A stretch of 63,907 nucleotides of DNA, filler included, from Basidiobolus ranarum (taxonomy: Eukaryota): assembly GCA_040143965.1 (NCBI GenBank). It is 3 parts of 3 records of this genome, joined end to end, with 100 filler letters (N's around TTAATTAATTAA, not from the genome) between each part and the next. Parts side by side here need not be neighbours in the genome. Positions count along the whole stretch, not along the records: positions 21,426 to 42,735 come from JASJQH010000209.1; 2 more parts are not named here. The stretch is one strand, 5' to 3'. Below, piece after piece: positions 1,073-39,058 of the stretch (positions are counted from its first letter, which is position 1; each line of letters begins with the position of its first letter). Made by a program: the position numbers and the translations under genes. The notes under the pieces are model-generated. The model did not search any database. It had not been told where the DNA came from and saw only the letters and a program-made list of their open reading frames with translations.

Positions 1073-3490
1073 ATGGAAAATATCATGTGTGCCCTTGCTC
1101 AGCTTCAGCAAGAAAATTAATAACTTTGAGCTTCACTTGCTCAAGTACAGAATACAGCTCCACCCAACAATCCTGCAAATCCAACTCCTGAGCCAAAGAT
1201 TACGTTACCAAATAAGTTTGATGGCTGTTGCCAAAACTATTGTGGTTTTATCAACCAAGTAAACTCATCATCAGGCTACATCCCCATTGCTATCCCTCTG
1301 ACCAAACAAAAGTAGGCATAGTGGGAACAATATTAGCTGGAACAGCTCTATCTTGGTTTGCTCCTTTATGAAAAGTCAATCTCTGCTTCTTTTAAATTTC
1401 CTTGCTGAACTAGAAACTACATTTGCAAATGCAGACAAGGAAAGAACTTCAGCTATCAAGCTCTGTGCACTCAAACAAGGGTCAAAGCCTGCATCAGCTT
1501 ATGCTGCAGAATTTTGCCTTCTTGCCTGTGATCTGAAATGGGGAGAATCTGCCCTCATCAGCCAGCTCCAATATAGACTACAATAAAATATTAAGGATCT
1601 CTTACTCATTATGGCTGACCCCATGACCTTGAGTGATGCTATCCATTAGGCAGTTATATGTGACAACTGGCCAATTGAAAGACAACAACAAAGCAATCAG
1701 GTTCCTTCATACTCTCCTTCCTCAACATCTTCCAGATCTGCCTTCCATCAGACACAAAATACAACTCATGAAGATGACCCAATGCAAATTGATGGAACTT
1801 GATTTGGAATGCTTATCCCTAAAGAGAAATATCAATGCAAACAGGAGAATCTATGCCTCTGTTGTGGAGCTCCTGGACATGCAGCTGGAAACTGTGCAAA
1901 AATTATCCTGGACTTAAGATCAACAATATGCAAGTAGAAGGGAACTCTCCCCAACCATCAGAAAACTTCAACACCCAGCTGCAATAATGGGCATGCAGTT
2001 GGGCCAACCATCTTCAAAAATGTCTCTTCACCATACATTGCAATCTCTGCAGTCATACCAATCATCAAAGCTGCCCATTGCACTCCTGCTACCAAAATCC
2101 AGATCAATAAAAACAACAGCATTTCTTGATTCAGATGCTTCCTCCTGTTCTAATGACTCTGCCTTTGTCAAATCCCACTATATCCATACATTCCAGAAAT
2201 TTAGTCCAGTCATGGTAGAAGTAACTGATGCAAGGCCACTATTATTGGGCTCTCTAACCCATGAGACAACCTTTATAACACTCATGTCCACTGCTCATCA
2301 AGAAGAAATAGCCTTTAATATCATTTCTTCACCTCACCATCTTGTCATCATTGGTGTCGCATGGCTCATGCATCACAACCCAGTAATCAACTGGAAAAAG
2401 AAGATTATCATGTTCAATCAAGTTCCACCTGCTAGTCCATGCAAAGTATCCAACTCATCATCAGCCCAAATCCTCAAAACATCTCTGCACCCAATATCCA
2501 TTGACAGTGCTGCTGAAGAGCTTAAACCAACAAAATCCATAGTTCCTAAACTGCCACCCAATTACTTAGCTTTTGCAAATATCCTTGGCAAAAAGAAACT
2601 TGATATACTACCAGCTCACTGCCTATCTGATTGCCCTTTAAATCTAAAAGAAGGAAAACAACCACCATTTGGGCCTATATATGAGCAGACCTGGCCATAA
2701 CCCAACATTCTGAAAGAGTATATCATAGAAAATCTGGAGAAAGGATTTATCTGAAATTCAAAGTCTCCAGCAGGCTCTCCATCTTATTTGTAAAGAAAAA
2801 GGATGGATCCCTCCATCTCTGTGCTGATTATCAAGGCCCAAATAGCATTACAGTCAAAAATTGGTACCCTGTGCCATTATTCAACTCACTCTTGGATTAG
2901 CTTGCTTCAGCCAGGGTATTTACAAAGATTGATTCAAGAGGTTTTTACAATCTTATCAGAATCAAACCAGGAACTATTTGACTGTAAACAATCTTGCCCA
3001 CAAGCATTTGCAACTTTAAAGAATGCTTTTATCTAAGCACCAATGCTGGAACTTCCCAAACTAGACAAGCCATTTATTGTTGAAACCAATGAATCTGACT
3101 TTGCTCTAGGAGCAGCATAACACAGTATGGTGACAACAACTTACTACTCCCTATTGCCTCTTACTCAAGAGAGTTCTCTGCAGCAAAAATCAACTATAAC
3201 ATCTATGACATGGAACCATTAGCAATCAATGCTGCATTTGAACAATGACAACAGTACTTGGATGGAGCTAATCACACAATCACTGTCTATTGTAATCATA
3301 AGAATCAACAGTATTTTAGTACAACCAAAGTTCTCACCCTGTGTCAAGCAAGAAGGTCATTATTTCTTGCCAGTTTTAATTTTGTGATTACATATTGACA
3401 GGTAGCCAGCAAGGAAAAACTGATGCCTTATCATGTAGAGCAGAATATCAGGCTAAAGAAGGGGATGAGGCCTTTGGCCAGCAAACTCTT
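1073..3490 (+). mobile_element. Degenerate Ty3/gypsy retrotransposon gag-pol (gag, protease, partial RT, RNase H)
   Basis: Gag PEPKITLPNKFDG and CCHC knuckle CLCCGAPGHAAGNC (~1850-1895); protease AFLDSDAS; RT start PPFGPIY...VKKKDGS; RNase H KPFIVETNESDFALGA; many stops and frameshifts, and most of the RT core is missing. Confidence 0.9.
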
Positions 3491-4840
3491 CCCCTAACAA
3501 AAATAAAATTGATTAGAATTGGATATGATCTACCCTTCTGGATTGTAATAACATCAGAAAGCCATCCCAATATTAGTGGCTGGCATTCTGCCAGGGATTT
3601 TGATGGTGTGATGGTAGTTTCTTGAAGGTATTTTGATGGTGTTCATACATGTTAAAATATTGATCCTCCAACTTGGCATGCATTATTTGATTTCTGGCAA
3701 TTTTTGCAAAAAGCTAATTTTTGAATGGCCAATTACTGGGTTTACTGCTGTAGGAACTTGAATTAATATGCATGCCTTTATTTATACATTTTAGGCTTTG
3801 TATTCCGGCCATAATGAGGATCAAAAAATTCAAGAATCTCATTGTGCTTAGTCTCTCTATATGCACATACTTGACTGATCAGACATAACTCAACAACATC
3901 AATATGCTTTGCCAGCAAACTAATGGTGGGAAAATTGCTAAACATCTGGAATTTTGAATAGTACTAACACTTGGCAAATAGCTGACTCTTGTTACCATTC
4001 ACAATGAGAATAAGCTATTGGATTTGGGCAGATTTCCATCAAGAGTTGAGCCAATATATACCCAACTTGCCTTCAACAAATGTCCTGCCACAAGTAGAAG
4101 TGTCACTGCTTGAATAGATTACCCCATGGCTAAAACAATAATACTACATTTCTTGATCTATCTCACCAAGAAGTCTGTCTTGCAGCTTTCCTAGAAATAC
4201 TGTCAGATAATCACGCAAACAAAAGAGTTCAAATTATGGAGGTTCTTACTCTATGTCCCTGGATTGGGCATTGTTGCTTTTGTTTTGCTCAAATAATGCA
4301 AAAACCTATGAGCACATTGAAAAGAGCCATTAGTTGGAGGTTATATATACTGTGGAGTCTTCTAAACCCATCTCATTACATTACATTCAAAACTTTAAGA
4401 TGAGGAGTCAAAGGTATGTTGGCTAAATATGAACAATATTTTCCTAATTCAGTGATTGCTAATTGTGTGCAAACAGTACATGACTTCAGGTTCTTCAGAT
4501 CACCGGTGAGAGCAAAACCACTATTTGGACTTGAAGTTAGCTTCATTACTGAAGGATCATCAGTCATATACTTGACTAATGTTTTTCACTTGTACCTGGT
4601 CTGTGGCAAGCAACAGTTGCCAATCAACTGTGGTAAAAGTGTAAGAAAACCAATAAACACCTGGTCACAAAGATTGGATTGGACGCTCCACTCCTCAATA
4701 ATCAAAGCTGCTTCCTTTACTGTGAGTGTTATGAGTGGACTAATACCTGCTGATAACCAAGAGTCCGAAGTAAAACCATCATCTTATTCATCAACTTGTG
4801 ATATGCTACCATCAGTACTTGAATTAGCAAGGTGAACATA
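3491..4840 (-). mobile_element. CACTA/EnSpm(CMC)-like DNA transposon fragment with terminus CCCCTAACA at 3491
   Basis: Minus-strand SCTVCTQL...YLANIPLTPHL is homologous to the Tnp2-like fragment at 12040-12830; the terminus resembles the ends at 19698 and 41615. Confidence 0.55.
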
Positions 4841-4849
4841 TAAAATTTA

Positions 4850-5230
4850 GGGCTTTGAACTGATGAAATCCAACTTCAATTATCTTCAAATACAGCTATA
4901 GCACTTTTTTGGATGTATCCTAAGTCTGCCAATAACTTCCTAAACCACGTAGCTTCTTATGTAGCAGTAGAGGCAGCCATATACTATGCTTCTGTAGTGG
5001 AAAATGTTATGGTTGGTTGCTTCTTACTATTCCAAGTTATGGCTCAATTACCTTAGAGAAAAGTGTACCCGGTTGTTGATCTTCTATGATCAAAGTTTCT
5101 TTCCCAGTCTGCATCACTGCAGCCTTCAAACCTTTGTGCATCAGGAGTGGCAGAGTATTCCAGAACTAGATCTACAGTTTCTCTGAAATATCTGAATATT
5201 TGTTGTACTGCAGTTTTATGCTTTGATATA
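4850..5230 (-). mobile_element. Extra Ty1/copia RT/RNase H fragment
   Basis: Minus strand encodes DADWERNFDHRRSTTGY...WNSKKQPTI...STTEA*YMAAS, paralogous to 5540-5830. Confidence 0.8.
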
Positions 5231-5301
5231 AGAGTTGCTATTTACCTCATTTCACCATTTCTACTCAACTAGATATTTTGTAATTGTCTTAAACCTCACT
5301 T

Positions 5302-8300
5302 TTATCTTAATAATTTAAAAGGTGCTTTAGCCAGAGGTTTGGTTAAGATGTCAGCAATCATTTCTGCTTTAGGACAATAGAGAAGTTGAATTAAGTCATC
5401 CTCTATTGCTTTTCTAACAAAATGCTGCCTAATACCTGAATGTTTTGTTCTAGTATAAAAAGCAGGGTTTTTAGCTGACGAAATATAACTTGGATTATCT
5501 TCAAACACAGTAATAGCACATTTTTGCATGTATCCTTAGTCTGCAAACAACTTCTTAAAACTCATAGCTATTTGTCTGGCAGCAGAGGCAGCCATATACC
5601 CTGCTTCTGTAGTGAAAGTGCTCCAGTTGGTTGCTTTGTACTATTTGAAGTTGAGGCTCCATAACCATAGAGAAGAGCATATCCAGTTGTCAATCTTCTA
5701 TCATTGAGGTTTCTTCCCCAGTCTGTATGACTCTAGCCTTCAAACTTTTGTGCATCAGGTGTGGGAGTGTATTCCAAACCTTAATCTACTGTTCCTCTCA
5801 AGTACACAAATATTTGTTTCACTGCAGTTTTGTGTTCATATCTAAAATTTATGAGATATTGCCTGTCAGTTCCCACTGCTACAGCAATTTCTGGACATGT
5901 TCCAACCATTGTATACAATGAACTACCCACCATGGATTGATAAGGGAGCTCCTGGCTTTGATTTGAGTTGTATTGGGCCAAATTGGATGAAATTTTGATT
6001 TACTTCACATTGAGATCCATTGGTGTTGATACAGGCTGAATATTCACCGTGTTGAAGCATTTAAAGATATCTATGATGTATCCAATTTGATTCACTATGA
6101 TTTTTGGATTAGGTTCATCTTTCTTGATTTGGATGCTAAGGAAACAATTTAATTCATTCATATCAGTTGTCTGAATTTGGTTTGATAATCTGCTTTTTGT
6201 CTGATTATGTGCTTCTCAAGCTTTGTGGCTATGATCAAGTCCTCTACATATAGTGCCAAGATAAGGATCCTATACTGTGATCTGCTGTTTATTTTTGGAA
6301 TTCTTGTGATTCCAAATAGAAATCTATCTTGTTGTATCATGCCCTGCATGCTTACTTGAGTCCATATAGCCATATTTGCAATTGACAGACCATATCAGGG
6401 TGGTTGGGGCCAACAAATCCATATGTGTGCTCTATATAGATCTCTTCTTCTAGATTTCCATTCAGAAAGGCTGATTTTTGCATCTGTTTGATGTAAATCA
6501 AGATTATGGATGGCTTAGAGTGCCAGGATTGTTCTGATTGAGGTAAGGTTAGCTACTGAAGCAAATGTTTTATTAAAATCAACTCCTGGGGACCAGTTAT
6601 AACCTTTTGCAGCTAATGTTTCTTTATACTTTTCGATGGTTCCATCAGCTTGGCTTTTGGCTTTGTATATCCATTTGCAACCTGTTGGCTTTCCCCCTAA
6701 TGGTAGGGGACTTAAAACCCATATTTGATTGTCACAAAGTGAAGAAAACTCATCAGACAATGCTTTTTCAGTAATCTTAACTCTGGATGCTCCAGAGATT
6801 AATTTGGAGTCTGTGGCTTGTCACATAATGCTGCATACACATATACATAATCATTGAAAGTGATCCACCTGGTTCCTGGCTAGTTTCACCTTCTGGATCA
6901 TTTTTGAGTTCCTGAATCATCCTCTGCTGTAATTGAGCCTGGAATTTTGTTGCTTAAGGCTCAGATAGAGCTGGAAGTTTGTCAGACACTTTATAAATAG
7001 TGCTGATTGTGCTTTCTGGATCAAGAACTGTGATTTGAGATGAAAAATCTACTTTTTCATCAATAAATCACATCTCTGTACCTAATGACCTTCTAATTTT
7101 TAGTAGCACACAGTCTTTTGGCCTTAGAGGCATTGGAGTAACCAAGAAATATGCATTTTCTGCTTTTGGGTTCCAATTTAGAGCTTTTTTTGAGTAGGAA
7201 TAAGGCTATAGACAGTGCAATCAATGATCCTGAGATGATCCACACTTGGCTTTGATCCATATGGGGCTTAAAATGGAGTATAATTTTGCAGTAATCTTGT
7301 TGGGCATCTGTTTGCAAATGAGACTGCAATGGAGCCAGATTCAGCCCAATATTGGTAATCCATTTTTTGCTCATATAACATTAATCTTGCCATCTTCATT
7401 TTGGTCCTATTAGCACATTCTGCAACTCCATTTTGCAGTGGAGTATAAGGCACAGTAGGTTGATGCTTAATTCCATGTTAAGTACAAAAATTAGCAAAGT
7501 CTTCAGAGCAGTATTGTTCACCATTATCACTCCTTAGCACCCATATTTTTTATGCCAAATCTTTTTATGCCATTGCTTCAAAGGGCTTGAACCTAGCTAA
7601 GGATTTAGATCTTGATTTGAGGCAGAATACACAAGTATATCTTGTTTTATCATCAATACAGGTCATAAAGTACCTGTTGCCACCTAATGAGATATTTCAC
7701 ATGGGCCCACATAGGTCAGAATGAATCAGGGCCAAACTCTGAGTGGATTTGATTTCTCTGGAGCTTGAAAATGGCTGTCTGTGATGTTTTCCATATATGC
7801 AGCCTTCACATAGATCCAATTAAGTTTTATTTTTAATTTCTAAGCCTGAACCAAGCTAATTTTGAAACATTTGGTTCAGTCTTTGTTCCCCAAGGGGACC
7901 TAATCATCTATGCTATGCCATACAGCTTTTTCACTTGTTTTGGCCAAGTTTGCATGCTCTGAATGCATCCAGTGCATAGTCATTACTTGAGTAAACTTCC
8001 CATGTTTGGATAGGCTTTAAGCTGGAAAACCAATGTTTCTTGTTTGATATATGCTGGGAAGCTCCTGAATCAATGTACCACATTTCAGAGTCTTCCTTAG
8101 TGGTTACCAATGGGGCAGACACAAATTGATGATCTCCATCAGTGCTTACTTGATTTGCTTGTTCCAATTTCAGCTTTTTGGCAAAAATCCTTTTGCTGCA
8201 AACTTTGAATAAATGGCCTGCTTTCTTGAAATACTTGCTGATGATTGATTTCCTATTAGGGCCACCATTATTGAAGCCTAAAAATGCCTGTTCTGCCAAA

Positions 8301-8837
8301 TTTTGCTGAGAATTTGATCTCCTTAATACCTCATTCACAAGCCTAGCAACAAAATATTCCATTGTTAATGGCTCTGATCTTGATTCTAGGGCAAATGCAA
8401 GGTTCCCAAGCTTGTCTGGCAGGCTCCTAAGTAGTGGCATGACTAAGTCATCTTCATTTAGAGGTGCTCCAATGGATGAGAGCTGATCAGCCATAGTTTT
8501 ATCTAATTTATGTGATTAAGCATCAAGTGTTTCTCAAGCATTTTGGATACTTTTGGTTGATTATATATACTTCAATTGAGAGTCTTAGAGATGTAAACAA
8601 AGTGTAGAGTGTGCTCTCCTCTTCTTCTTGTGAAAGGTAACAATAGCTTTGGGTGGATCCTTGGGCTCTATTTCTTCTACTTTAACAAATACCCAAAGGT
8701 CCTTGTCTTCAAGCACCACTTGCATCTTGAACTTCCAAAGGTGAAAGTCTTCACCATTAAACCTCTCTGTGGATGCCAAAACGTTGGTTATAGTACTGGT
8801 AGATATTCCTTTAATGGCTAGCTCAGGGCTCATAGCT
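5302..8837 (-). mobile_element. Degenerate Ty1/copia element internal region (gag, protease, integrase, RT, RNase H)
   Basis: Gag FNGEDFHLWKFKMQ, protease WYIDSGAS, integrase TPLQNGVAE, RT GCKWIYK and LYVEDL, RNase H FEDN...RTKH in copia domain order. Confidence 0.93.
8824..8837 (-). promoter_or_regulatory. Primer-binding site complementary to the tRNA(iMet) anticodon arm (Ty5/copia half-tRNA type)
   Basis: Minus strand AGCTATGAGCCCTG directly follows the LTR CA; the expected form is GGTTATGAGCCCTG. Confidence 0.7.
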
Positions 8838-9177
8838 TGCTTAAAGTGTTTAGGGGGTTTGGAAGTGTTTAGGAAAGATTTGGATTTGTGAATTTTTTGC
8901 TAGACACTTGAGTTTTATTGCATTGAATACGTCTTATTTATGATATACTATAAAATAGAACTATTGGATGCAATTAGATCATATCAAAAATGCCTGTTAA
9001 GCTTAGGTGAAGATTTGAGGTGATTTGCATAAGTTTTGAGAAAATAGCAAAAATTGATATTTCTGTCAATTGGAGCAATAAACACATGCTTTTGAATGGC
9101 AGAATTGAGTGCTAAATAATGAGATTGTTTATAAACTAACTACCAAATAATGAGTGGCTATTTATGTAATTTCAACA
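8838..9177 (-). repeat. 5' LTR (340 bp, TGTTGAA...CA) of the minus-strand copia element
   Basis: TG...CA ends on the minus strand; reverse complement aligns with 15245-15568. Confidence 0.8.
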
Positions 9178-9199
9178 GTTTAATCCAAGATAGCAGAGA

Positions 9200-12035
9200 A
9201 ATGATTTTTGCCAAAAAGCTAAAATGGGAACAAGCAAATCAAGTAAGTGCTGATAGGGATCATCAATTTGTGTCTGCCCCATTGGTAATTACTAAGGAAG
9301 ACTCTGAAATGTGGTACATTGATTCTGGAGCTTCCCAGCATATATCAAACAAGCAATGTTGGTTTTCCAGCTTAAAGCCTATCCAAACATGGGAAGTCTA
9401 CTTAAGTAATAACAATGCACTAGATACAGTTGGTAAGGGCACAGTTGAGTTGTGGTGATTTTAGACCAAACTCAGCTATACCATCTGCAAAATTAAATGA
9501 TGTATTCCAAGAACTAAATATAGCCAAGAATCTACTCTCAATAAGTCAAGCAACAACCAAAGGACTAATTTGTGTTCTACAAGACTCAATGCACCATCAG
9601 AGCTTCAATGAATACCATAGGAGCTACCTGGATCAAAACTCAAAACTTATACAAGCTAGAAATGAACAAATGGCATTATGATTATTAACATGCAAACTGG
9701 GCAAAAACTGGTGAAATAAGTTGTCAAACATTGCATAGAAGATTAGGCCACATTGTAGAACAAGATTGCCCTAAATGATATCAAATCAGCTAGATTGAGG
9801 CTTAGAAATTGAAATTGTCATCAAATTGTTTCAGTGTAAAGGTTGCACATATGGAAAACATCACAGACAGCTGTTCTCAAGCTCTGTAGAAATCAAATCA
9901 ACTCACATTTTTTCCCTGATTCATACCAATCTATGTAGGCACATGTTAAACATCTTACTTAGTTGCACAAGGTGCCTAATGACCTTTATTAATCAGAAAA
10001 CCAGATACAACAGGGTATTCTCTCCAATCAAATCTGAAGCCTTAGCAACACTTAGGCACTACAAAGCAGTGGTGGAGAAAGAATCAGCACCAGAAATATT
10101 GGCATAGAGAGGTGACAATGATGGAGAAAAATGTTCTAAAGACTTTGCAAGTGTCTGCTCTAAAATGGAATTTAGCAACAAACTACAGTACCTTTTTCTC
10201 CAAGGTAAAATTCAGTTTAAGAATGTGCTAATAGGACCATAGTGGAGATTGCAAGATCATTATTACATGTCCAAAAGTTAGATTACAAGTATTTGGCTGA
10301 ATCTGTATTGGCTACAGTCTATATCAAAAACAGATGTCCAACAAGATTGCTATGAAATTCTACTCCATTTGAAGCCCTTTATGGATGATAACCAAGGGTG
10401 GATCTTCTCAGGTTCTATGGTTACACATCATATTGCCACATTAAAGCTCCAGGATGTTCTGAATTGGAACCCAAAGGCAAAAAATGTAGATTTCTTGGTT
10501 ACTGTGATGGACCCAAGACCTACAGACTGTCTGACACAAACAATCAGAAGTTAATTATGTGTGGAAATCCAATCACAATTCTTGATCTAGAAAGCACAAT
10601 CACCACTATTCAGAAAGTGTTTGGTGAAGTTGCAGCTGTATCTGAGCTTAACTCAACCTAAAATCCAGCCCCAATTACATCAGTTGATGATTCAGAACCT
10701 AGAAAATCATCCAGAAAGAGGAATAAGGCTGGGAACTGGTGGAACACTTCAAATGCTGCTTGCTATGCTTATGCAGCATTCTGTAATGAGCAACAGACTC
10801 TAGATCAAGTTCTGGAGTGAACAGATTTAATATCATGTGAAGAAGCAATGTCTGATGTGTTTTGGTTACTTCTGGTCAGTAGGATGTGAATATTGAAGTC
10901 TCTGCCATTAGGAAGAAAGTCAATAGGTTGCAAATGGGTCTCTAAAGTCAAAAACCAAACTGATTGAACCATTGCAAGGTACATTGCAGGATTAGTTGCA
11001 AAAGGTTACTCCCAGGCTCAAGAAGTTGATTTTTATGAAATCTTTGCTCCAGTCACCAAATTTAGCTCCATTAGATCAATCCTGGCACTCTCAGCTATCC
11101 ATTACCTTAATTTACATTGAATGGATGTAAATACAGCTTACTGGAAGGAATTCTAGAAAAACAGATCTATAGAGAGCAACTAGATGGATTTGCTGACCCA
11201 AAACCCCTGGATATGGTCTGGAAACTGCTAAAATTGCTGCATACACTCAAGCAAGCATCCAGGGCATGGTCCAACAAGATAGATCATTGGAATTCCAAAA
11301 TGTGCAGCAAATCACAGTATTTTTATCAAGATAACTATGAATAGGATCCTTTCCTTGTTACTATATGATGATGACCTCATCATAGACATAAACATTCTGG
11401 AAGCACTTAATCAGATGAAAAGCAGCTTAGCAAGCTGATTGCAGATGACTGATATGGGTGTAGTTATTTTCTGGGAATAACAAACAAGAGTGCTGAACCC
11501 AATCAGAAAATGCTGCTGAAGCAGTCAGGATACATCCTACACATCCTAAAGCACTTTAACCTGGAGAATAGAAAACCTGTATCAGCACTAATGGAACCTG
11601 ATGTGAAATTAGTCAAGATGTCATCCAACTTGGCCCTAAATGGGTCAAATCAATACCAGAAGTTCCCATATCAATCCATGGTGGGTGGTTTAATGTGACA
11701 ATGATTCCAACATATCCAGACATTGCTGTGGCAGTGGGAACTGTCAGCCAGTTTCACAAGAATCCAGGATCTGAGCACAAAACTGCAGCAAACAAATACT
11801 GAGATACCCAAGAGGAACGATGTATCCAGTTCTTGAATACTCTGGCACTCCAAATGCAGAAGATTTCGAAGGCTACAGTGATGCAGACTGGGAAAGAAAT
11901 CTTGATCATAGAAGAACAGCAACCAGGTACACTTTTCTCAATGGAAATGGAGCTAAAACTTGGGATAGTAAGAAGCAACCAAGCATAGCACATTCTACTA
12001 CAGAACAGAGTGTATGGCTGCCTCTGCAACTACAC
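9200..12035 (+). mobile_element. Degenerate Ty1/copia pol copy (protease to RNase H)
   Basis: WYIDSGAS, CKGCTYGKHHR, GCKWV.KVK, YDDDL, GYSDADW, SKKQPSIAHSTTE; many stops. Confidence 0.9.
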
Positions 12036-12830
12036 CAATTGAACCATCTGAAAAACCCAAAGTCATGTATGGTTTGTGCACAAGTGGCAATGACTGAATC
12101 AGTTAACATTGTGCATGTCTGGCTTACATACCATTAATTACCCATTTTATAGTTTTGATGAAGTCACCCAAACATAGACCATCAATCCATTACCAGAGTA
12201 CTCACCGTAAAGCTGATTATATAGCCAATATGCATGATGGATATTACTACCAGAATCTGAGAAGGCAAGGTTTGTTTAACAACACATATGATCATGCATT
12301 TGCATTTGCTCTGGATGATTACTCACTGAACAAACATACCATTCAAAAGGCTTGCTGGCCAATAATTTTAATTGTCTAAGAACTTCTTCCATCTGAATAT
12401 TAAAGGAGTCATAATATATTAATTGTATGATTATATCTGGACCTACATCACCAGTGGGTATATATAGCTTATTGGAGCTTTCAATTATGTAATTTCAGCA
12501 GTTATCTAATGGGGCTCAGATGGGTGCATATTTTTTTAAAGGTGAGATCATTGTATATATTTGTGATACCCCTGCCATCAATAAATTATGAGGTTTTTGT
12601 GGGCACAATGGATTATCTTGCTGTAGATTTTGTCAAATAAATGGAGTTTACTCTACCAGGCATATGCATTACTACTATGCAAATACTACACAAATTACAT
12701 GATTTTACCATCAAGAGCCAGGTCAGATTTCAAACTCTTGCTGATATCAATTCACCAAATAATCAGTCCAACATCAACCTTGGGATATGCTGTAAGCCTA
12801 GGAATATATTGCTAAAGGGGCCCGCTATGG
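12036..12830 (+). mobile_element. CACTA/EnSpm-like Tnp2 (Transposase_21-like) fragment
   Basis: HDGYYYQNL...AFALDDY...CWPIIL, GPTSP...SLLE, DTPAI...GFCGHNG..C..CQINGVY motifs. Confidence 0.75.
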
Positions 12831-12834
12831 AGAG

Positions 12835-15240
12835 ATCAAACCCACTCACAATTTTCCCTTGATTCATTCTGACCTTTGTGGGCCCATGAAAAACTTCTCA
12901 CTAGGTGGCAAAAGGTACTTTATGACCTTTATTGATGACAAAACAAGATATACTTTGTATTTTTGCAATTCAAGATCTGAAGACTTAGCTACATTCAGGC
13001 ACTGCAAAGCAATGGTAGAGAAAGAATTAGTACAAAAAATAAGTGTCCAAGCAGTGATAATGGTGGACAATACTGCTTTGTTATACACATGGAATTAAGC
13101 AACAAACTATGGTATCTGATTCTCCAATGCAAAATGGAGTTGCAGAACATGCTAATAAGACCAAACTAAAGATGGCAAGATCAATGTTACATGATCACAA
13201 GTTAGATTACCTATCTTGGGCTAAATCTGTCTCCATTGCAGTCTATATCAAAAACAGCTGCCCAACAAGATTGCTACAAGATTGCTACAAAATTCTACTC
13301 CATTTGAAGCCCTATATGGATCAAAACCAAGCTGGGATCATCCCAGAATATTTGGTTAGACAACAAATTGACTAATTCCAGCTCAAAAATGTACTAAATT
13401 GGAACCTAAAAGCAGAAAATGCAAATTTCTGGGTTCTAGTGATGGATCTAAGGCCCGCAGACTGTTTGATACCCAAAATCAGAAGTTCACTAAGTGCAAA
13501 GATGTAATTTTCTGATGAAAAAGCAAAAATTTTTACCTCAAATCACAGTTCTATATCGAGAAAACATAATCAGCACTAATCAGAGAGTGTTTGACAAATT
13601 TCCAGCTGTATCTGAACCCTATTCAACCACAATTGCAGTCCCAAATACATCAGAAAATGATTTGGACTAAGAAGATCATCCAGGAGGAGAAATAAGCCAG
13701 GAAACTGGTGAAACACTTGCAATGCTGATGTACATTCTTATGCAGCATTCTGTGATGAGCCACAGAATCAAGATGAAGCTTGGGAGTGTTGAGAATCAAA
13801 ATCCTGGGAAAAAGTAATGTCTGATGAGTTTTCTTCACTTCAGGACAATAAAACATAGGTGTTAATTCCACTACCATCAGGGAGAAAGCCAATAGGTTGC
13901 AAATGGTTCTACAAAGTGAGAAACTAAGCTGATGGAGCCATTGAAAGGTACAAACCAAGATTAGTTGTAAAAGGTTATTCACAGACTCCAGGAGTTGATT
14001 TTAATAAAAAACTTGCTTCAGTAGCTAAGCTCAACTCCATTAGTTCAATCCTGGCACTCTGGGCCATCCATAACCTTGATTTACATCTAATAGATGTAAA
14101 AAACAACCTTTCTGAATGGAAATCTAGCAGAAGAGCTCTACATGGAGCAACCAGTTGGATTTGTTGACCCAAAACATCCTGAGATGGTCTGTAAGCTGCA
14201 AAAACTGCTATATGGACTCAAGCAAGCACCCAGGGCATGGTTCCACAAGATAGCTACCTATTTGCAATCACTAGAATTCCAAAAATGCACAGCATATCAC
14301 AATATATATATTGAAACATCCAGAAATTGGATCCTTATCTTCACACTGTATATGGGTGACTTGATTGTATCCACAAATGATCTAGAAGCACTTAATCAGA
14401 CTAAAAGCAGCTTATCAAACCAATATCAGATGAATGAGAGGGGTGAATTGAGTTATTTTCTTGGAATTCAAATCAAGAGTGATGAATCCAATCAGAAAAG
14501 CATGCTGAATCAGTCTAGATACATCCTAGACATCCTGGGATGCTTCAACATGGAGAATAGCAAGCTTGTATCAACATCAATGGATCTGACTGTGCAGTTG
14601 ATCAGAATTTCATCCAACTTGGCCCAAAATGACTTAAATCAAAGCCAGGAGTTGCCTTATCAATCCATGGTGGGTAGTTTAATGTAAATAATGCTTGGAA
14701 CATGTCCAGACATTGCTGTGGCAGTGGGAACTGTCAGCTAATATCTCAAAACTCCAGGATCTGAACACAAAACTGCAGTAAAACAAATACTCAGGTATTT
14801 GAGAGGAACAGTAGGTTAAGTTCTGGAATACTCTCCCATGCTTGATGCACAGAATTTTGAATGCTATGGTGATGCATTCTGGGAAAGAAACCTTGATGAT
14901 AGAAGATCAACAACTAGGTACACTTTTCTCTATGCTAATGGATCCTTAACTTGGAATAGTAAGAAGCAACTGACCATAGCATTTTCCACTACAGAAGCAG
15001 AGGATATGGCTGCCTCTGCTGCTACACCAGAATCTATGTGGTTAAGGAAGTTATCCACAGATTTAGGATACATGCAAAAACATGCTATTACCATATTTGA
15101 AGATAATTACAGTTATATTTCATTGGGCAAAAGCCCAAACATTTCACACTAGAGCAAAACATATAGATATTTGGCATGTTGTTGTTAGCGAAGCCATAGA
15201 GAATGATATAGTTGAACTTGTCTATTGCCCTACCAAAGGA
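12835..15240 (+). mobile_element. Degenerate Ty1/copia integrase-RT-RNase H copy
   Basis: [37 protein letters not shown]...STTEAE, FEDN. Confidence 0.92.
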
Positions 15241-31166: not shown

Positions 31167-33391
31167 ATGGCCACTCCCTACAGGAGCTACCTCGCTCCAT
31201 TATGGATATTCTTATTACTATGTATTTGTCAACCCCCAGCTACCCTTGCAATCAAACAGACACTGGTACGTGAAATTTTTATTGTGAAGGACATGTTGCA
31301 AATGAACTTTGAGCGAACACGTTATCCTTTAGACTCAAGCAGATGAGTTCATGCCTTGCCAAGGAATGTATTCCAAATCCTCTATCCCCAATGGGGCTGA
31401 TGCTTACATTTCCTGTAGGTTTTATTTACATCCCTATTTTTATTAGTTATTTGTGTTATTTATCGACTATATTGCGTTATTTGTTTAGTGACCTTCTCAC
31501 CAGAGTCTGAAGGAAAAATATCCACTTTATTTTTTGAATGGAGTGATTTTGAAAACTTGGGCTTAGAAACTTCAGAAGATGGAAAAGTATATTAGATACA
31601 TAACTTACTTTCAAACCATACATTTGCTCACTGAGATTTTCAGAAAACCTATACTTGCGATGAACGTGCCGTTAGAGCAAATGCTTGTACGAAAGAAGAA
31701 CTAGGTTCTTTCATTCATCCCCCAGACGGACCCACTTCTATACAAGTGCAAAATATTATTTTAGGCCCCAAGGTTGATAAGAAAGCATACTTCATTGAGT
31801 ACCCAATTACTAGAACTGGTTACTATTGCGTCAGCGCGAAAGCAATTTCAGGTCATTTCTCTACTACTGTAGATTGGAGAAATCCTTTTGGCCAACTTGC
31901 TTCCTACGACTATCCCAAACTCCCGGTACTTAATTGACTTGATATTGTTCTGTCAAACATATTTCTAACACTGCAAGTGTCTATTCAAAGCTATACGGCC
32001 TTCTAGCAATTGTTTACTTAACTGTAGGGATCGTCTGGTCGATTGGAACCATTCGCTATTGGAGTGAGATTTTACCTGTTCAAGTAATTACTTTTAAATA
32101 TGACCTTCAGCTTATTCCGAGTTAACTCAACTCTTTTGAAGAATTATGTATCTGGATTGATAGCTGTTATAGCTATTGAAATGGGATTCACCTTTGGCTA
32201 TTGGCAGTACTATAACAAACATGGAGAAAAATGTAATATTCCCAATCTATCATCAGAATACTCAGTGTTCTAACCAAAAGCACAGCAATCTTCCTTTTGA
32301 TTATGAGTGTCATCTTTAATGCTGGTCGTGATAGTCTCTCCTTCTTCGTACTGTTAATTGTTTGCCTGGGATATGGTGTTGTTAAGTGAGTAATAATGTA
32401 TTTGTTGGACATAATTTATTTCGCTTACGCCTCTTTTCATAGGCCATCGCTTGGAAGCACAATGAGAAAATGTATAGCTCTTAGTATAGCCCATTTTATT
32501 TTCGGATGCATATATGCATCCAGCGCCGCTTTGAATTCCACCCAACCCGGAAGTCTTGTGGTTCTACTTGCTTCGTTGCCACTCTCACTAGTCTTTACGA
32601 CATTTTATGTTTGGATATCCTTTTAAATTCTCATTCAAATTGCTCACTACCATCATCACTTGTCATGAATGCCTTAACTTGCTCGTACATTCTCCAAGGT
32701 TTGACTAATACTATGCAGGAGCTAGTCGATAAAAAGCAAACAGTGAAGTTGACCATGTACAAATGGCTATGGAGACTGCTTGTTTTTTCCGGTGTTGTTT
32801 TGATTGTTTTCTTTGTGATCAATGTGATGAACTTCCGCTGGAGTGAAGACCCAGATTTGACATCGAAACGCTGGCAAATGGGATGGTTCATGATGGACGG
32901 TTATTTGAATGTTTTGTATTTCATTGTTTTCACCGGAATTATGATCCTATGGAGACCCACAAGCAACAACAGAAGATATCCTTTCATATTACCCTTTACT
33001 TTTGATATAATTGAAACTTGTCATGTTCCTTAACCACTCTCATACGTATGGTCTTCAGGAATTACCCTCCGAAGACGATGACGCCTTTGCGCCAGGTTCT
33101 GAAGAATACCGCGAGGATATTGGCTTCCGTAACCTTGGAGCCGAAAATCCCGAAGACGAACAATTCGATGCCATCTTTGATATTGGAGAGGAGCATGAGA
33201 ATTTTATGGAATGGGCTGGAGATGAAGAATCATTTGATGAGGAAAACGCCAAGAAGTAAGTTGTACCTTTTCCAATGCTAGTTGATCTTCACTTGAGAGC
33301 TCAACAATTACTTGCCATCAACTATAGACCTGAAGAGAGCAATAAGAACAAGCAACGTCAGCCTGATGAACAACCCGAAAGTCAAGCTTAA
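31167..33391 (+). CDS. PTM1/TMEM87-like GOST (lung seven-TM) Golgi protein, multi-exon
   Basis: Signal peptide, TGYYCV, WRNPFGQLASYDYPKLP, LPVQNY, NAGRDSLSFFVLLIV..GYGVV.PSL, LWRPTSNNRRY, acidic tail. Confidence 0.9.
32615..32688 (+). other. U12-type AT-AC intron
   Basis: 5' ATATCCTTT, branch GCCTTAAC, 3' AC; removal joins YVW|ILQG in frame. Confidence 0.9.
32976..33045 (+). other. U12-type AT-AC intron
   Basis: 5' ATATCCTTT, branch TTCCTTAAC, 3' AC; removal gives NNRRYGLQEL in frame. Confidence 0.92.
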
Positions 33392-33817
33392 TTTCATAAT
33401 CTAAAACATATATTTTATCAACCATCTACAAGATGCATCTTTATTCGTTTGCCTTACTATCTTTTTTTAGAAAGAAACCACATCTTTTCCAAGGTTCATT
33501 GATTGGTAACATTTGTAGCGGCCATTTGATTAAAAGTTGATGAAATCTACGCATCAAATGATAATAGGAGCATTCCAGCTAGAACAATAAAAATCGTTCA
33601 CACCATACTTTCACATAGAGAAGTAGGGTTTTTTTGGCCCCGAGTTAGGATTGTGCCGATTGGAATCACTTTGGGATAATATTAATATTCAATCCAATCC
33701 TATTTAATTTACTACTTAAGAATGCAAATTTCATCATGTCATGCCAAATCATGCCAACGCAATTTAAATTAAATCCATTCTGGAAAGATAAGGAACCGCC
33801 TCCCCCCAACACTGACA

Positions 33818-34648
33818 ATGGCCTTAGAATCAAGTACACCTGTTAAGCGTATTGAGTTTCTTTCCCCGGAAGGAATAACTCTCTCGGCCTTGCTCACTGA
33901 GAAGACTAATGCACCTTCTAACCAGGTTGTTATACTTTGTCACGGCTTTTTGAATCATTCGAACTCCAGTATCATCCGTGGGCTGACCAGCCAACTTCCC
34001 TATAATATTTGCGCCGTTGATTTTCGTGGTAACGGATTTAGCACGGGAACTACAAAGTATGGAAATTATCTTGAAGAAGTGGTGGACTTGAAAAACTGGG
34101 TAGACCATCTAAGAGACGCTTTAAACTTTAAAGTGTTGGGCATCGTTGGGCATTCTAAGGGTGGCTCAGTAGTGTTACTCTATGCGTCAAAATACAACCA
34201 GGTTCCATTGATAGTTAATATAGCTGCCAGGTTTGATATGTCTGACTTGCCTATGCATAGATTTACTGCGGAACAGTTGACGGAACTAGAGGAGAAGGGA
34301 TGTTTTGTTTGGCGTAAATACAAGCACAATACCGAAGAAAAAGATTTCATTGTCAGTCAGATGGATCTAACGACCAAGAAAAACACAGATATGTCGGTGG
34401 TGAAGAATGTTGACAAAGAACGTGTTCGCGTTCTCTCTGTCCATGGTGAGGAAGATACCATCATACCAGTGGAAGAAGTCAAGATGTATGATCAACTTAT
34501 GGGGCCGAAGCCTCATCATGAAGTTGCTGTCATCACAGAGGCTAGCCATTTCTTCCGAACACCTGAGGAGCAAAAAGAGCTGAGTCAAGCAATCATCAAT
34601 TGGATGGACAAATACTTCAATTGGGCTCAAGATATCTTATTCAATTAG
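33818..34648 (+). CDS. Alpha/beta hydrolase (esterase-like), intronless
   Basis: ILCHG, DFRGNGFS, GHSKG nucleophile elbow, HGEED, terminal catalytic H (ASHFF). Confidence 0.9.
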   Translation: MALESSTPVKRIEFLSPEGITLSALLTEKTNAPSNQVVILCHGFLNHSNSSIIRGLTSQLPYNICAVDFRGNGFSTGTTKYGNYLEEVVDLKNWVDHLRDALNFKVLGIVGHSKGGSVVLLYASKYNQVPLIVNIAARFDMSDLPMHRFTAEQLTELEEKGCFVWRKYKHNTEEKDFIVSQMDLTTKKNTDMSVVKNVDKERVRVLSVHGEEDTIIPVEEVKMYDQLMGPKPHHEVAVITEASHFFRTPEEQKELSQAIINWMDKYFNWAQDILFN

Positions 34649-37609: not shown

Positions 37610-39058
37610 ATGGTAAAGCACTTTCCATTAACGATTTCTTGAATCTCTCATATAATCTCAATGTTGCCCTCACTCTTTTAAGTATGGAACCAATCGAAAT
37701 GGTAAAGAAGTTCCGGCTGATGCATTTTGGGATGAGGTAAATTCACATTATTCTTACCTGATACGCTTATTTACCTATCGATCACTAATGCTTGCTCTAG
37801 TATTCAAGACTGGATACGACTATCCAGATGATCGAGAACCATGTCAAAAGCATCGAAGGAATCCGTTCTCAGATGTTAGAAGCGCTTTCTGAGTCTGAGC
37901 AAGCCCGTATCCTTTTAAATCGAACCTAGAATATGGATAGAAGCTGTTGGATATGTTTTCTTTAACACGACACCATTTTCTTATAGAATATTCTAAAAGG
38001 TTGAATATCTTGGTAACAGAAACGTCACAAATGATGATGAACGTGCGAAGCAGAATTCAAGGTATTTTATTGGACTCTTCAGACTGTCACGCCGATCAGT
38101 GAAATGGTTAACACGTTTTACTCGCTTGATTAAGCCATAGAAGAACTTTCCAAAAACCCCTCTACAGCACCATCGAATTTGAAAGCGTTTCGTAACCGAG
38201 TAAGTAACAGTTTGCCGATCTCGCCTCCTTCTCCGATTAACTTATCTTTGTTTGCTTATTGTAGCTTTTGGGGCTTCGGGAGAAACTCAAGAATGCATTG
38301 CTGGAGTATCAGAGAATACAGCACAAGTATGATGAGGAGCATAAGGAAACCATCATTAGGCAGTATGAGATTGGTAACGAGTGTGATATCTATCACATTG
38401 CAACCCCAACCGCAACTGAATTCTCTTCTTTGACATAGTTAATCCTGATGCTACCCGTGATGAAATCGATGCCATGGTTAATGATTCAGATTACCAGCAG
38501 GTTTTCGCCCAGGCGGTAAAGTCCAGGTTCAGATAAAGATATGTATGTACATACTCCCTCATCAGAATTTTATATAGGTTCTTCAGAGCAATCGTAAAGA
38601 ACATGCAATCCGTGTATTAGAAGCTGTACAGAGTAGAGACAAAGACATTCAAAAAATCCATGATAGTGTTTTGGTATGCAGAATATCGACCTGATTTCTG
38701 ATGGCATTTGAACTCTGGCTCTGACCTTTGATCCAATGACAATATAGGAATTGGCCCAACTGTTTCAACAAATTGATCTAATGATTGAAACCCAAGGAGC
38801 TGTCATCGTCGACGTCGAGAATACAACTGCACAAGTAGTAGAGCATCAAGCGCAAAGTCAGCAGATCCTGGAGAAAACTGAGGGATTATTAAAGAAACTC
38901 CGGCAGGTAGGTTGTCTGAAAGGTATATGACTACGTACCTGAAACTAATACTCTGTTTCCAGAAAAAGCTGATTCTGTTGAGCATTGCATTGATCATCAT
39001 TATACTGATTGTCGTTACTGTGGTCGTCCTCACTAGACCTAAGAGCGCTAGTTCATGA
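37610..39058 (+). CDS. Syntaxin, divergent paralog 3, multi-exon
   Basis: RQYEIVNPDATRDEI, QQVFAQAVLQ, VQSRDKDIQKI...ELAQLFQQ...ETQG, C-terminal TM. Confidence 0.88.
37907..37986 (+). other. U12-type GT-AG intron in syntaxin 3
   Basis: 5' GTATCCTTT, branch-like TTTCTTTAAC ~20 nt before TAG; phase-1 splice restores the frame (QA Q YSKRL). Confidence 0.8.

What the first reader, a model, noticed from the sequence alone, without database searches (positions are those of the whole stretch)
32615..33045. Two consecutive AT-AC U12 introns flanking one exon in the PTM1/TMEM87-like gene
Seen: both introns start ATATCCTTT, carry a CCTTAAC branch ~10-12 nt from an AC 3' end, are 74 and 70 nt long, and restore the conserved frame (YVW|ILQG; NNRR|YGLQ). 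Known: Dikarya model fungi lack the minor spliceosome, and GT-AG-only gene predictors mis-model AT-AC introns. Inference: this fungus has a functional minor spliceosome, and an exon bounded by two very short minor introns is an unusual splicing substrate.
Basis: partly seen in the sequence, partly recalled or inferred. Interest (0 to 1): 0.75.

Follow-up and report, generated by a model that had tools for sequence, protein, structure and literature searches.

The report
Two ancient minor introns, fungal TMEM87
A Golgi membrane-protein gene of a Basidiobolus fungus carries two back-to-back introns of the rare minor-spliceosome (AT-AC) type; they look real and very old, but this genus is already published as rich in such introns, so the find is correct and fairly ordinary.

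Summary
Confirmed. Introns 32615-32688 (74 nt, phase 0) and 32976-33045 (70 nt, phase 2) have ATATCCTTT, CCTTAAC and AC ends. They score best among 53 and 76 open-frame alternatives. The genome holds U11, U12, U4atac and U6atac. The gene matches a record labelled Basidiobolus ranarum that stops inside intron 1.

The premise that this is surprising fails. B. meristosporus has 249 published minor introns. The 58 AT-AC introns found here are 67-87 nt, and human DERL2 also has an exon between two minor introns. The scan already reported single AT-AC introns in this genome.

What this adds: intron 1 very likely sits where human TMEM87A has its AT-AC intron. Intron 2 is AT-AC at the same codon in two other fungi that lack intron 1. 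A paralog keeps both. The only U6atac found lacks the AAGGA box. No reads could be laid, so splicing is inferred.

The parts
31167..33391 (+). PTM1/TMEM87-like (GOST family) gene, 11 coding exons: 31167-31265, 31333-31414, 31489-31586, 31644-31925, 31991-32083, 32142-32232, 32286-32385, 32443-32614, 32689-32975, 33046-33255, and a last exon starting at 33328 (or 33298)
   Evidence: Open frame aligned to P0002; PF21902 + PF06814. One search used acceptor 33297; the annotated paralog P0123 favours the in-frame acceptor 33327
32615..32688 (+). U12-type AT-AC intron 1, 74 nt, phase 0, after Trp339
   Evidence: best of 53 open-frame models; retention stops at residue 342, which is where P0005 ends
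32615..32623 (+). 5' splice site ATATCCTTT of intron 1; pairs with the 5' end of this genome's U11
32672..32678 (+). branch motif CCTTAAC of intron 1; pairs with this genome's U12
32689..32975 (+). 287-nt exon between the two minor introns; encodes PF06814 positions 157-246, the last part of the seven-helix domain
32976..33045 (+). U12-type AT-AC intron 2, 70 nt, phase 2, in an Arg codon just after the WRPTSNN motif
   Evidence: best of 76 open-frame models; same site AT-AC in L076, L077, L080 and paralog L082
32976..32984 (+). 5' splice site ATATCCTTT of intron 2
33028..33034 (+). branch motif CCTTAAC of intron 2

Best explanation
Two genuine, constitutively removed U12-type AT-AC introns in the PTM1/TMEM87 gene of a Basidiobolus fungus. 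Mechanism, inferred from known minor splicing: the U11/U12 di-snRNP binds across each ~70-nt intron (intron definition), U11 on the 5' site and U12 on CCTTAAC. U4atac/U6atac.U5 then joins, and the nearby AC is used as the 3' site. Each intron is probably defined on its own, so the 287-nt exon needs no special mechanism. Both introns are old: intron 1 is probably shared with animal TMEM87A/B, and intron 2 is shared with Glomeromycotina-like fungi. Shown: motifs, frame, snRNA genes, predicted pairings, position of intron 2 in other fungi. Inferred: actual splicing, the exact codon of the human intron, intron definition.
For: (1) Against a profile of 119 non-Basidiobolus homologs the AT-AC model scores 586.5 bits; the best GT/GC-AG alternatives score 540.9 (intron 1) and 567.0 (intron 2). 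Retention or exon skipping gives early stops. (2) U11 84.6 bits and U6atac 66.3 bits exceed Rfam cut-offs; U12 49.4 and U4atac 46.6 are full-length but below the cut-off of 53. The U4atac candidate forms a 13-bp and a 6-bp stem with this U6atac. (3) PF16021 (PDCD7, recalled as U11-59K) and PF18036 (recalled as the U11/U12-25K family) each hit over cut-off. (4) Genome-wide patterns: AT-AC 62 vs 15 control, GT-AG 56 vs 7. (5) The B. meristosporus protein P0002 reads through both joins, and the annotated paralog P0123 joins NNRR|YGLQ across its AT-AC intron. (6) The human TMEM87A minor intron has TGG|ATATCCTTC, human CWW-IFIS aligns with YVW-ILQG, and it is retained when U4atac is mutant. (7) L076, L077 and L080 carry an AT-AC intron at the same phase-2 site. 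(8) The paralog keeps both introns, with diverged interiors.
Against: No reads could be laid on this window, so splicing of these two introns is not observed. U12 and U4atac score below Rfam's gathering threshold; the U4atac/U6atac duplex energy was reached by 6 of 500 shuffles. The one U6atac found pairs with only 4 of 6 positions of the 5' site. The PDCD7 hit is at the cut-off (27 bits). The public model of this gene (P0005) does not splice intron 1.
Confidence: 0.95

Rival explanations
1. AT-AC introns removed by the major (U2) spliceosome, the minor snRNA genes being relics.
For: U2-type AT-AC introns exist (PMC2831892 passage). U12 and U4atac score below cut-off, and U6atac has a divergent 5'-site box.
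Against: U2-type AT-AC introns described there have G at +5; these have C5C6 and a perfect U12 branch motif. More than 100 strict-pattern minor introns are kept genome-wide. U4atac and U6atac remain complementary.
Confidence: 0.02
2. The introns are mostly retained or skipped, so the gene makes a truncated 342-aa product as annotated, or is a decaying copy.
For: P0005 ends at YVWISF inside intron 1. Minor introns are often slowly spliced (recalled).
Against: The downstream exons are intact and 83-87% identical to B. meristosporus. Truncation removes PF06814 positions 158-246. Both splice motifs are kept in the paralog while intron interiors diverged.
Confidence: 0.02
3. The pair is a regulatory device: two minor introns in series act as a double rate-limiting valve or exon-skipping switch for this Golgi protein.
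For: The animal TMEM87A/B minor intron takes part in tissue-specific mutually exclusive splicing. Both introns survive in both paralogs.
Against: About one adjacent pair per genome is expected by chance. Other fungi keep only intron 2. Skipping the exon gives a frameshift and stop. Larue and Roy favour neutral explanations and found no proliferation link in Rhizophagus.
Confidence: 0.1

Closest known systems
Minor (U12-type) introns of Basidiobolus meristosporus (Larue and Roy 2023, PMC10639083: 249 introns, 0.554%; PMC11347168: 237 introns, divergent U4atac)
   Same: Same genus, same intron class; all four minor snRNAs, with U4atac found only at low score.
   Different: Different species. I found no mention of TMEM87/PTM1 in PMC11347168 (0 hits); the term count was also 0 for PMC10639083.
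AT-AC minor intron of human and mouse TMEM87A/TMEM87B (PMC6717393; PMC8329584; PMC6800510)
   Same: AT-AC subtype; the last exon triplet is TGG in TMEM87A, matching the aligned Trp before intron 1.
   Different: Mammalian intron is 2-5 kb and is tied to mutually exclusive exons 11/11a. Only one minor-intron position is listed per gene, so the site of intron 2 is not minor in mammals.
DERL2 (human, mouse): exon between two minor introns
   Same: Two minor introns 94 nt apart (human chr17:5480583-5481295 and 5481390-5482808).
   Different: Introns 0.7-1.4 kb; subtype not checked.
NHX5/NHX6 and NHE6/NHE7: genes with two AT-AC introns (bioRxiv 10.1101/2020.10.19.345900)
   Same: Two ancient AT-AC introns in one membrane-protein gene.
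   Different: Adjacency not stated in the passages seen.
U6atac 'CC variant' [GU]CCGA (PMC2396436, section 16)
   Same: The box expected to pair with the 5' site is not AAGGA, while introns keep ATATCCTT.
   Different: Here it reads GUCGA. The two fungi in that paper (Rhizopus, Phycomyces) had AAGGA.

Membership tests
U12-type intron, AT-AC subtype | 5' site ATATCCTT(T) | tested here: met
   both introns
U12-type intron, AT-AC subtype | branch motif (T)CCTTAAC close to the 3' end, no long pyrimidine tract | tested here: met
   10 and 11 nt from motif to end
U12-type intron, AT-AC subtype | AC 3' end whose use restores the conserved frame | tested here: met
   top of 53 and 76 open-frame models
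U12-type intron, AT-AC subtype | complementarity to the organism's own U11 and U12 | tested here: met
   U11: 7 and 6 consecutive pairs; U12: 8 and 7 consecutive pairs with one A bulged
U12-type intron, AT-AC subtype | complementarity of +4..+9 to the U6atac box | tested here: inconclusive
   4 of 6 positions; similar loss is published for other lineages
U12-type intron, AT-AC subtype | observed removal, dependent on the minor spliceosome | not testable with these tools
   no reads available for this window; only indirect support from annotated P0002 and P0123
Genome with a minor spliceosome | U11 and U6atac genes | tested here: met
   84.6 and 66.3 bits, over cut-off
Genome with a minor spliceosome | U12 and U4atac genes | tested here: met
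   full-length, E 2.2e-7 and 1.7e-5, but below the gathering score of 53; U4atac pairs with U6atac and U12 with the branch motif
Genome with a minor spliceosome | minor-specific proteins | tested here: inconclusive
   2 families searched, 2 hits over cut-off, PF16021 only just; the link of these families to 59K and 25K is recalled; 65K, 48K, 35K and others not searched
GOST / TMEM87 / PTM1 proteins | PTM1-like N-terminal domain plus GOST seven-helix domain | tested here: met
   PF21902 and PF06814; human TMEM87A structures hit the ortholog at 1.6e-34
Orthologous intron of animal TMEM87A/B minor intron | same codon and phase | tested here: inconclusive
   TGG last triplet and aligned Trp fit phase 0; no human exon map was available, so the exact codon is inferred

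The most novel reading that the evidence does not exclude
The ancestral opisthokont TMEM87/PTM1 gene had both AT-AC introns. Animals kept the first as minor, Glomeromycotina kept only the second, and Basidiobolus keeps both. It splices them with a U6atac that has lost the AAGGA 5'-site box (GUCGA) and a U12 whose branch-pairing strand has co-shifted with the genome's branch sites (ATCCTTAAC). This would make the fungus a natural test of whether U6atac:5'-site pairing is dispensable.
Probability: 0.35. Interest if true: 0.5.

Novelty: new member of a known kind. Interest (0 to 1): 0.27.

Why it matters
Practical: the public model of this gene stops inside intron 1 and loses the last part of the seven-helix domain. 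Three of four named Glomeromycotina ortholog records I inspected (P0025, P0047, P0109; P0006 is intact) also lack the join at intron 2, so AT-AC-blind annotation probably hides minor introns in early-diverging fungi and lowers published counts. Evolutionary: one gene shows reciprocal retention of two old minor introns across animals and fungi. It does not change the picture of who has a minor spliceosome.

Tried and rejected
Rfam scan of the window: 0 matches. The 5' motif alone is at chance level. GT/GC-AG alternatives, retention and skipping were all worse or stopped early. 'Unusually short' rejected. 'Adjacent minor introns are unusual' rejected. Other two-minor-intron genes here (two MyTH4/RhoGAP-like paralogs, a VPS33-like gene and one unnamed gene; names are my reading of the translations) have other introns or over 900 nt between the pair. 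A second, canonical U6atac copy was sought by pattern and by model: 1 match each, the same locus; the assembly is fragmented (13,754 contigs), so absence is not shown. Two of 5 metagenome hits (L078, L079) are chance matches with no PTM1 gene and were dropped; L077 and L080 are 98.6% identical and count as one organism. Plant orthologs: no mention in the DROL1 preprint main text (its supplements were not seen); untested. A human exon map for the site of intron 2 was not found; that human TMEM87A has a phase-2 major intron there is recalled only. Transcript-derived proteins spanning this gene's joins: none among 3 hits of 82 candidates. The shared 10-mer before both branch sites is matched or exceeded by 8 of 1653 intron pairs, this one included; treated as probable chance. 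No structure or complex prediction was run.

Full report
Observation. Each begins ATATCCTTT, has CCTTAAC 10 or 11 nt before its end, and ends AC. The 5' motif alone is at chance level in the window (7 vs 6.27). The complete pattern occurs twice, against 0 in 300 simulated windows.

Gene and organism. The exon between the introns is 83% identical to a Basidiobolus meristosporus protein, P0002. An 11-exon model is open and aligns with P0002 end to end. It has PF21902 and PF06814, and P0002 hits human TMEM87A structures at 1.6e-34. Record P0005, labelled Basidiobolus ranarum, equals my model over the first 340 residues and then ends YVWISF, which is read-through into intron 1. So the organism is a Basidiobolus (Zoopagomycota), and the public model misses the AT-AC junction.

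Are the AT-AC junctions the right ones? I enumerated GT-AG, GC-AG and AT-AC pairs around each intron that keep the frame open (53 and 76 models) and scored them on a profile of 119 non-Basidiobolus homologs. The proposed pair is first both times: 586.5 bits against 540.9 and 567.0 for the best GT/GC-AG model. Retention stops at residue 342 or 453; skipping the exon frameshifts. No reads could be laid, so splicing is inferred. Indirect support: P0002 reads through both joins, and the public model of the paralog's 3' half, P0123, joins across its AT-AC intron. That such a model reflects transcript evidence is my inference.

Machinery. The genome has one match each for U11 (84.6 bits), U6atac (66.3), U12 (49.4) and U4atac (46.6); the last two are full length but under Rfam's cut-off of 53. 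U4atac forms 13-bp and 6-bp stems with this U6atac, and U11 and U12 pair with both introns. Two Pfam families recalled as U11/U12 proteins hit over cut-off, one barely. Strict patterns find 62 AT-AC matches (58 distinct; control 15) and 56 GT-AG matches (control 7).

Is it unusual? No. Larue and Roy report 249 minor introns (0.554%) in B. meristosporus, the highest fungal density; another survey gives 237 and a divergent U4atac. The 58 AT-AC introns are 67-87 nt, median 74.5, and the gene's major introns are no longer. At that density about one adjacent minor-minor pair per genome is expected by chance (gene number assumed 8,000-14,000). Human and mouse DERL2 have two minor introns 94 nt apart (1 of 6 genes I looked up, picked from memory). 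The scan has already noted many single AT-AC introns in this genome (86 notes fit, 8 shown); none was found for this gene by word search.

Age of the introns. Intron 1: the human TMEM87A minor intron has the 5' site TGG|ATATCCTTC, and human CWW-IFIS aligns with fungal YVW-ILQG. This fits the same codon and phase, but I had no human exon map, so it is an inference. Intron 2: a pattern for the junction plus a U12 5' site found 5 metagenome contigs. Three carry PTM1 with an AT-AC intron of 80 or 127 nt at the same phase-2 site; they are two organisms, best matched by Gigaspora P0006 (75% and 68%; the 68% one is about as close to Mortierellaceae). In the two contigs that cover it, the site of intron 1 is uninterrupted. 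The pattern could only find positive cases, so it gives no frequency. Three Glomeromycotina protein records lack the join at this site, as mis-annotation would cause. A paralog in the same genome keeps both introns. Mammals list a single minor-intron position in this gene; that they hold a major intron at site 2 is recalled, not tested.

Side results on the snRNAs. The U6atac box reads GUCGA, not AAGGA, and pairs with 4 of 6 positions of the 5' site. A [GU]CCGA variant is published for several non-fungal lineages, while the two fungi examined had AAGGA. One search found no other relevant paper; figures and supplements of PMC11347168 were not seen and may show it. U12 reads GGAUAA where the Rfam consensus has GGAAAA, predicting A before TCCTTAAC. 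Among 71 fetched introns (58 AT-AC, 13 of about 51 GT-AG), 43 have TCCTTAAC: A 21, T 16, C 3, G 3, against A 32 and T 132 of 243 in human plus mouse (not independent). Against the fungus's own intron composition the excess is modest (p 0.005; 0.03 on local background). A count by eye of the GT-AG list gave 20 A of 51. Neither window intron has the A. This is post hoc and only suggestive.

How it works. Most likely each short intron is defined on its own by U11/U12, activated by U4atac/U6atac.U5 and removed constitutively, giving a 525-535-aa Golgi GOST protein. Intron 2 lies two codons past the residue aligned with human N465-N466 at the TM7-helix 8 junction. The pairings are computed; the pathway is established knowledge; intron definition is inference from length. 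A regulatory role for the pair is possible but unsupported.

Papers seen. PMC10639083: passages and supplement list. PMC6717393: passages and supplement rows. PMC8329584, PMC7367187, PMC2831892, PMC4853521, PMC9711517, bioRxiv 10.1101/2020.10.19.345900: passages. PMC6800510: supplement rows (one file not searched). PMC2396436: passages and section 16. PMC11347168: passages and section 24. PMC10853781: term search, 0 hits.

Verdict. Real, correctly described, a new member of a known kind. Interest 0.27.

Noticed in passing
L064 (G000:C9846) 1452-1527 and L082 (G000:C7261) 132-202: Paralog of the gene, split over two contigs, keeps both AT-AC introns (76 and 71 nt). The second has a non-consensus 5' site ATATCATTA yet is joined in public record P0123. 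The exon between them is interrupted after GLTNT by unrelated sequence with no Pfam hit: an insertion or an assembly fault.
   Followed up: partly
window 37907-37986 +: Probable third minor intron: GT-AG subtype, 80 nt, GTATCCTTT with branch TCTTTAAC, in a syntaxin-like gene. Removal opens the frame; retention stops.
   Followed up: partly
L001 1501-1634 (G000:C89): The only U6atac found has GUCGA in place of the AAGGA 5'-site box.
   Followed up: partly
L002 1501-1648 (G000:C7055): U12 has GGAUAA in the branch-pairing strand; branch sites show a modest excess of A at the matching position.
   Followed up: partly
L015 (C80), L056 (C7260), L006 (C10), L031 (C790): Other genes with two minor-type introns 1.0-1.4 kb apart: two MyTH4/RhoGAP-like paralogs (both AT-AC), a VPS33-like gene and one unnamed gene (AT-AC plus GT-AG). 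Names are my reading of the translations.
   Followed up: partly
window 32657-32666 and 33016-33025: Both introns share ACTTGTCATG just before the branch motif; 8 of 1653 intron pairs share 10 nt or more.
   Followed up: yes
P0025, P0047, P0109: Glomeromycotina ortholog records lack the WRPT..R/FAMS join, as expected if the same AT-AC intron is mis-annotated. Their DNA was not seen.
   Followed up: partly
window 1900-15200: Decayed retrotransposon fragments (gag, protease, integrase and reverse-transcriptase-like ORFs, by my reading).
   Followed up: no
window 33773-34648 +: Intronless alpha/beta hydrolase gene directly downstream.
   Followed up: no
L001-L004, about 40-70 nt upstream of each snRNA: All four minor snRNA genes have a similar upstream element (RTCCCAY), a candidate shared promoter motif.
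   Followed up: no
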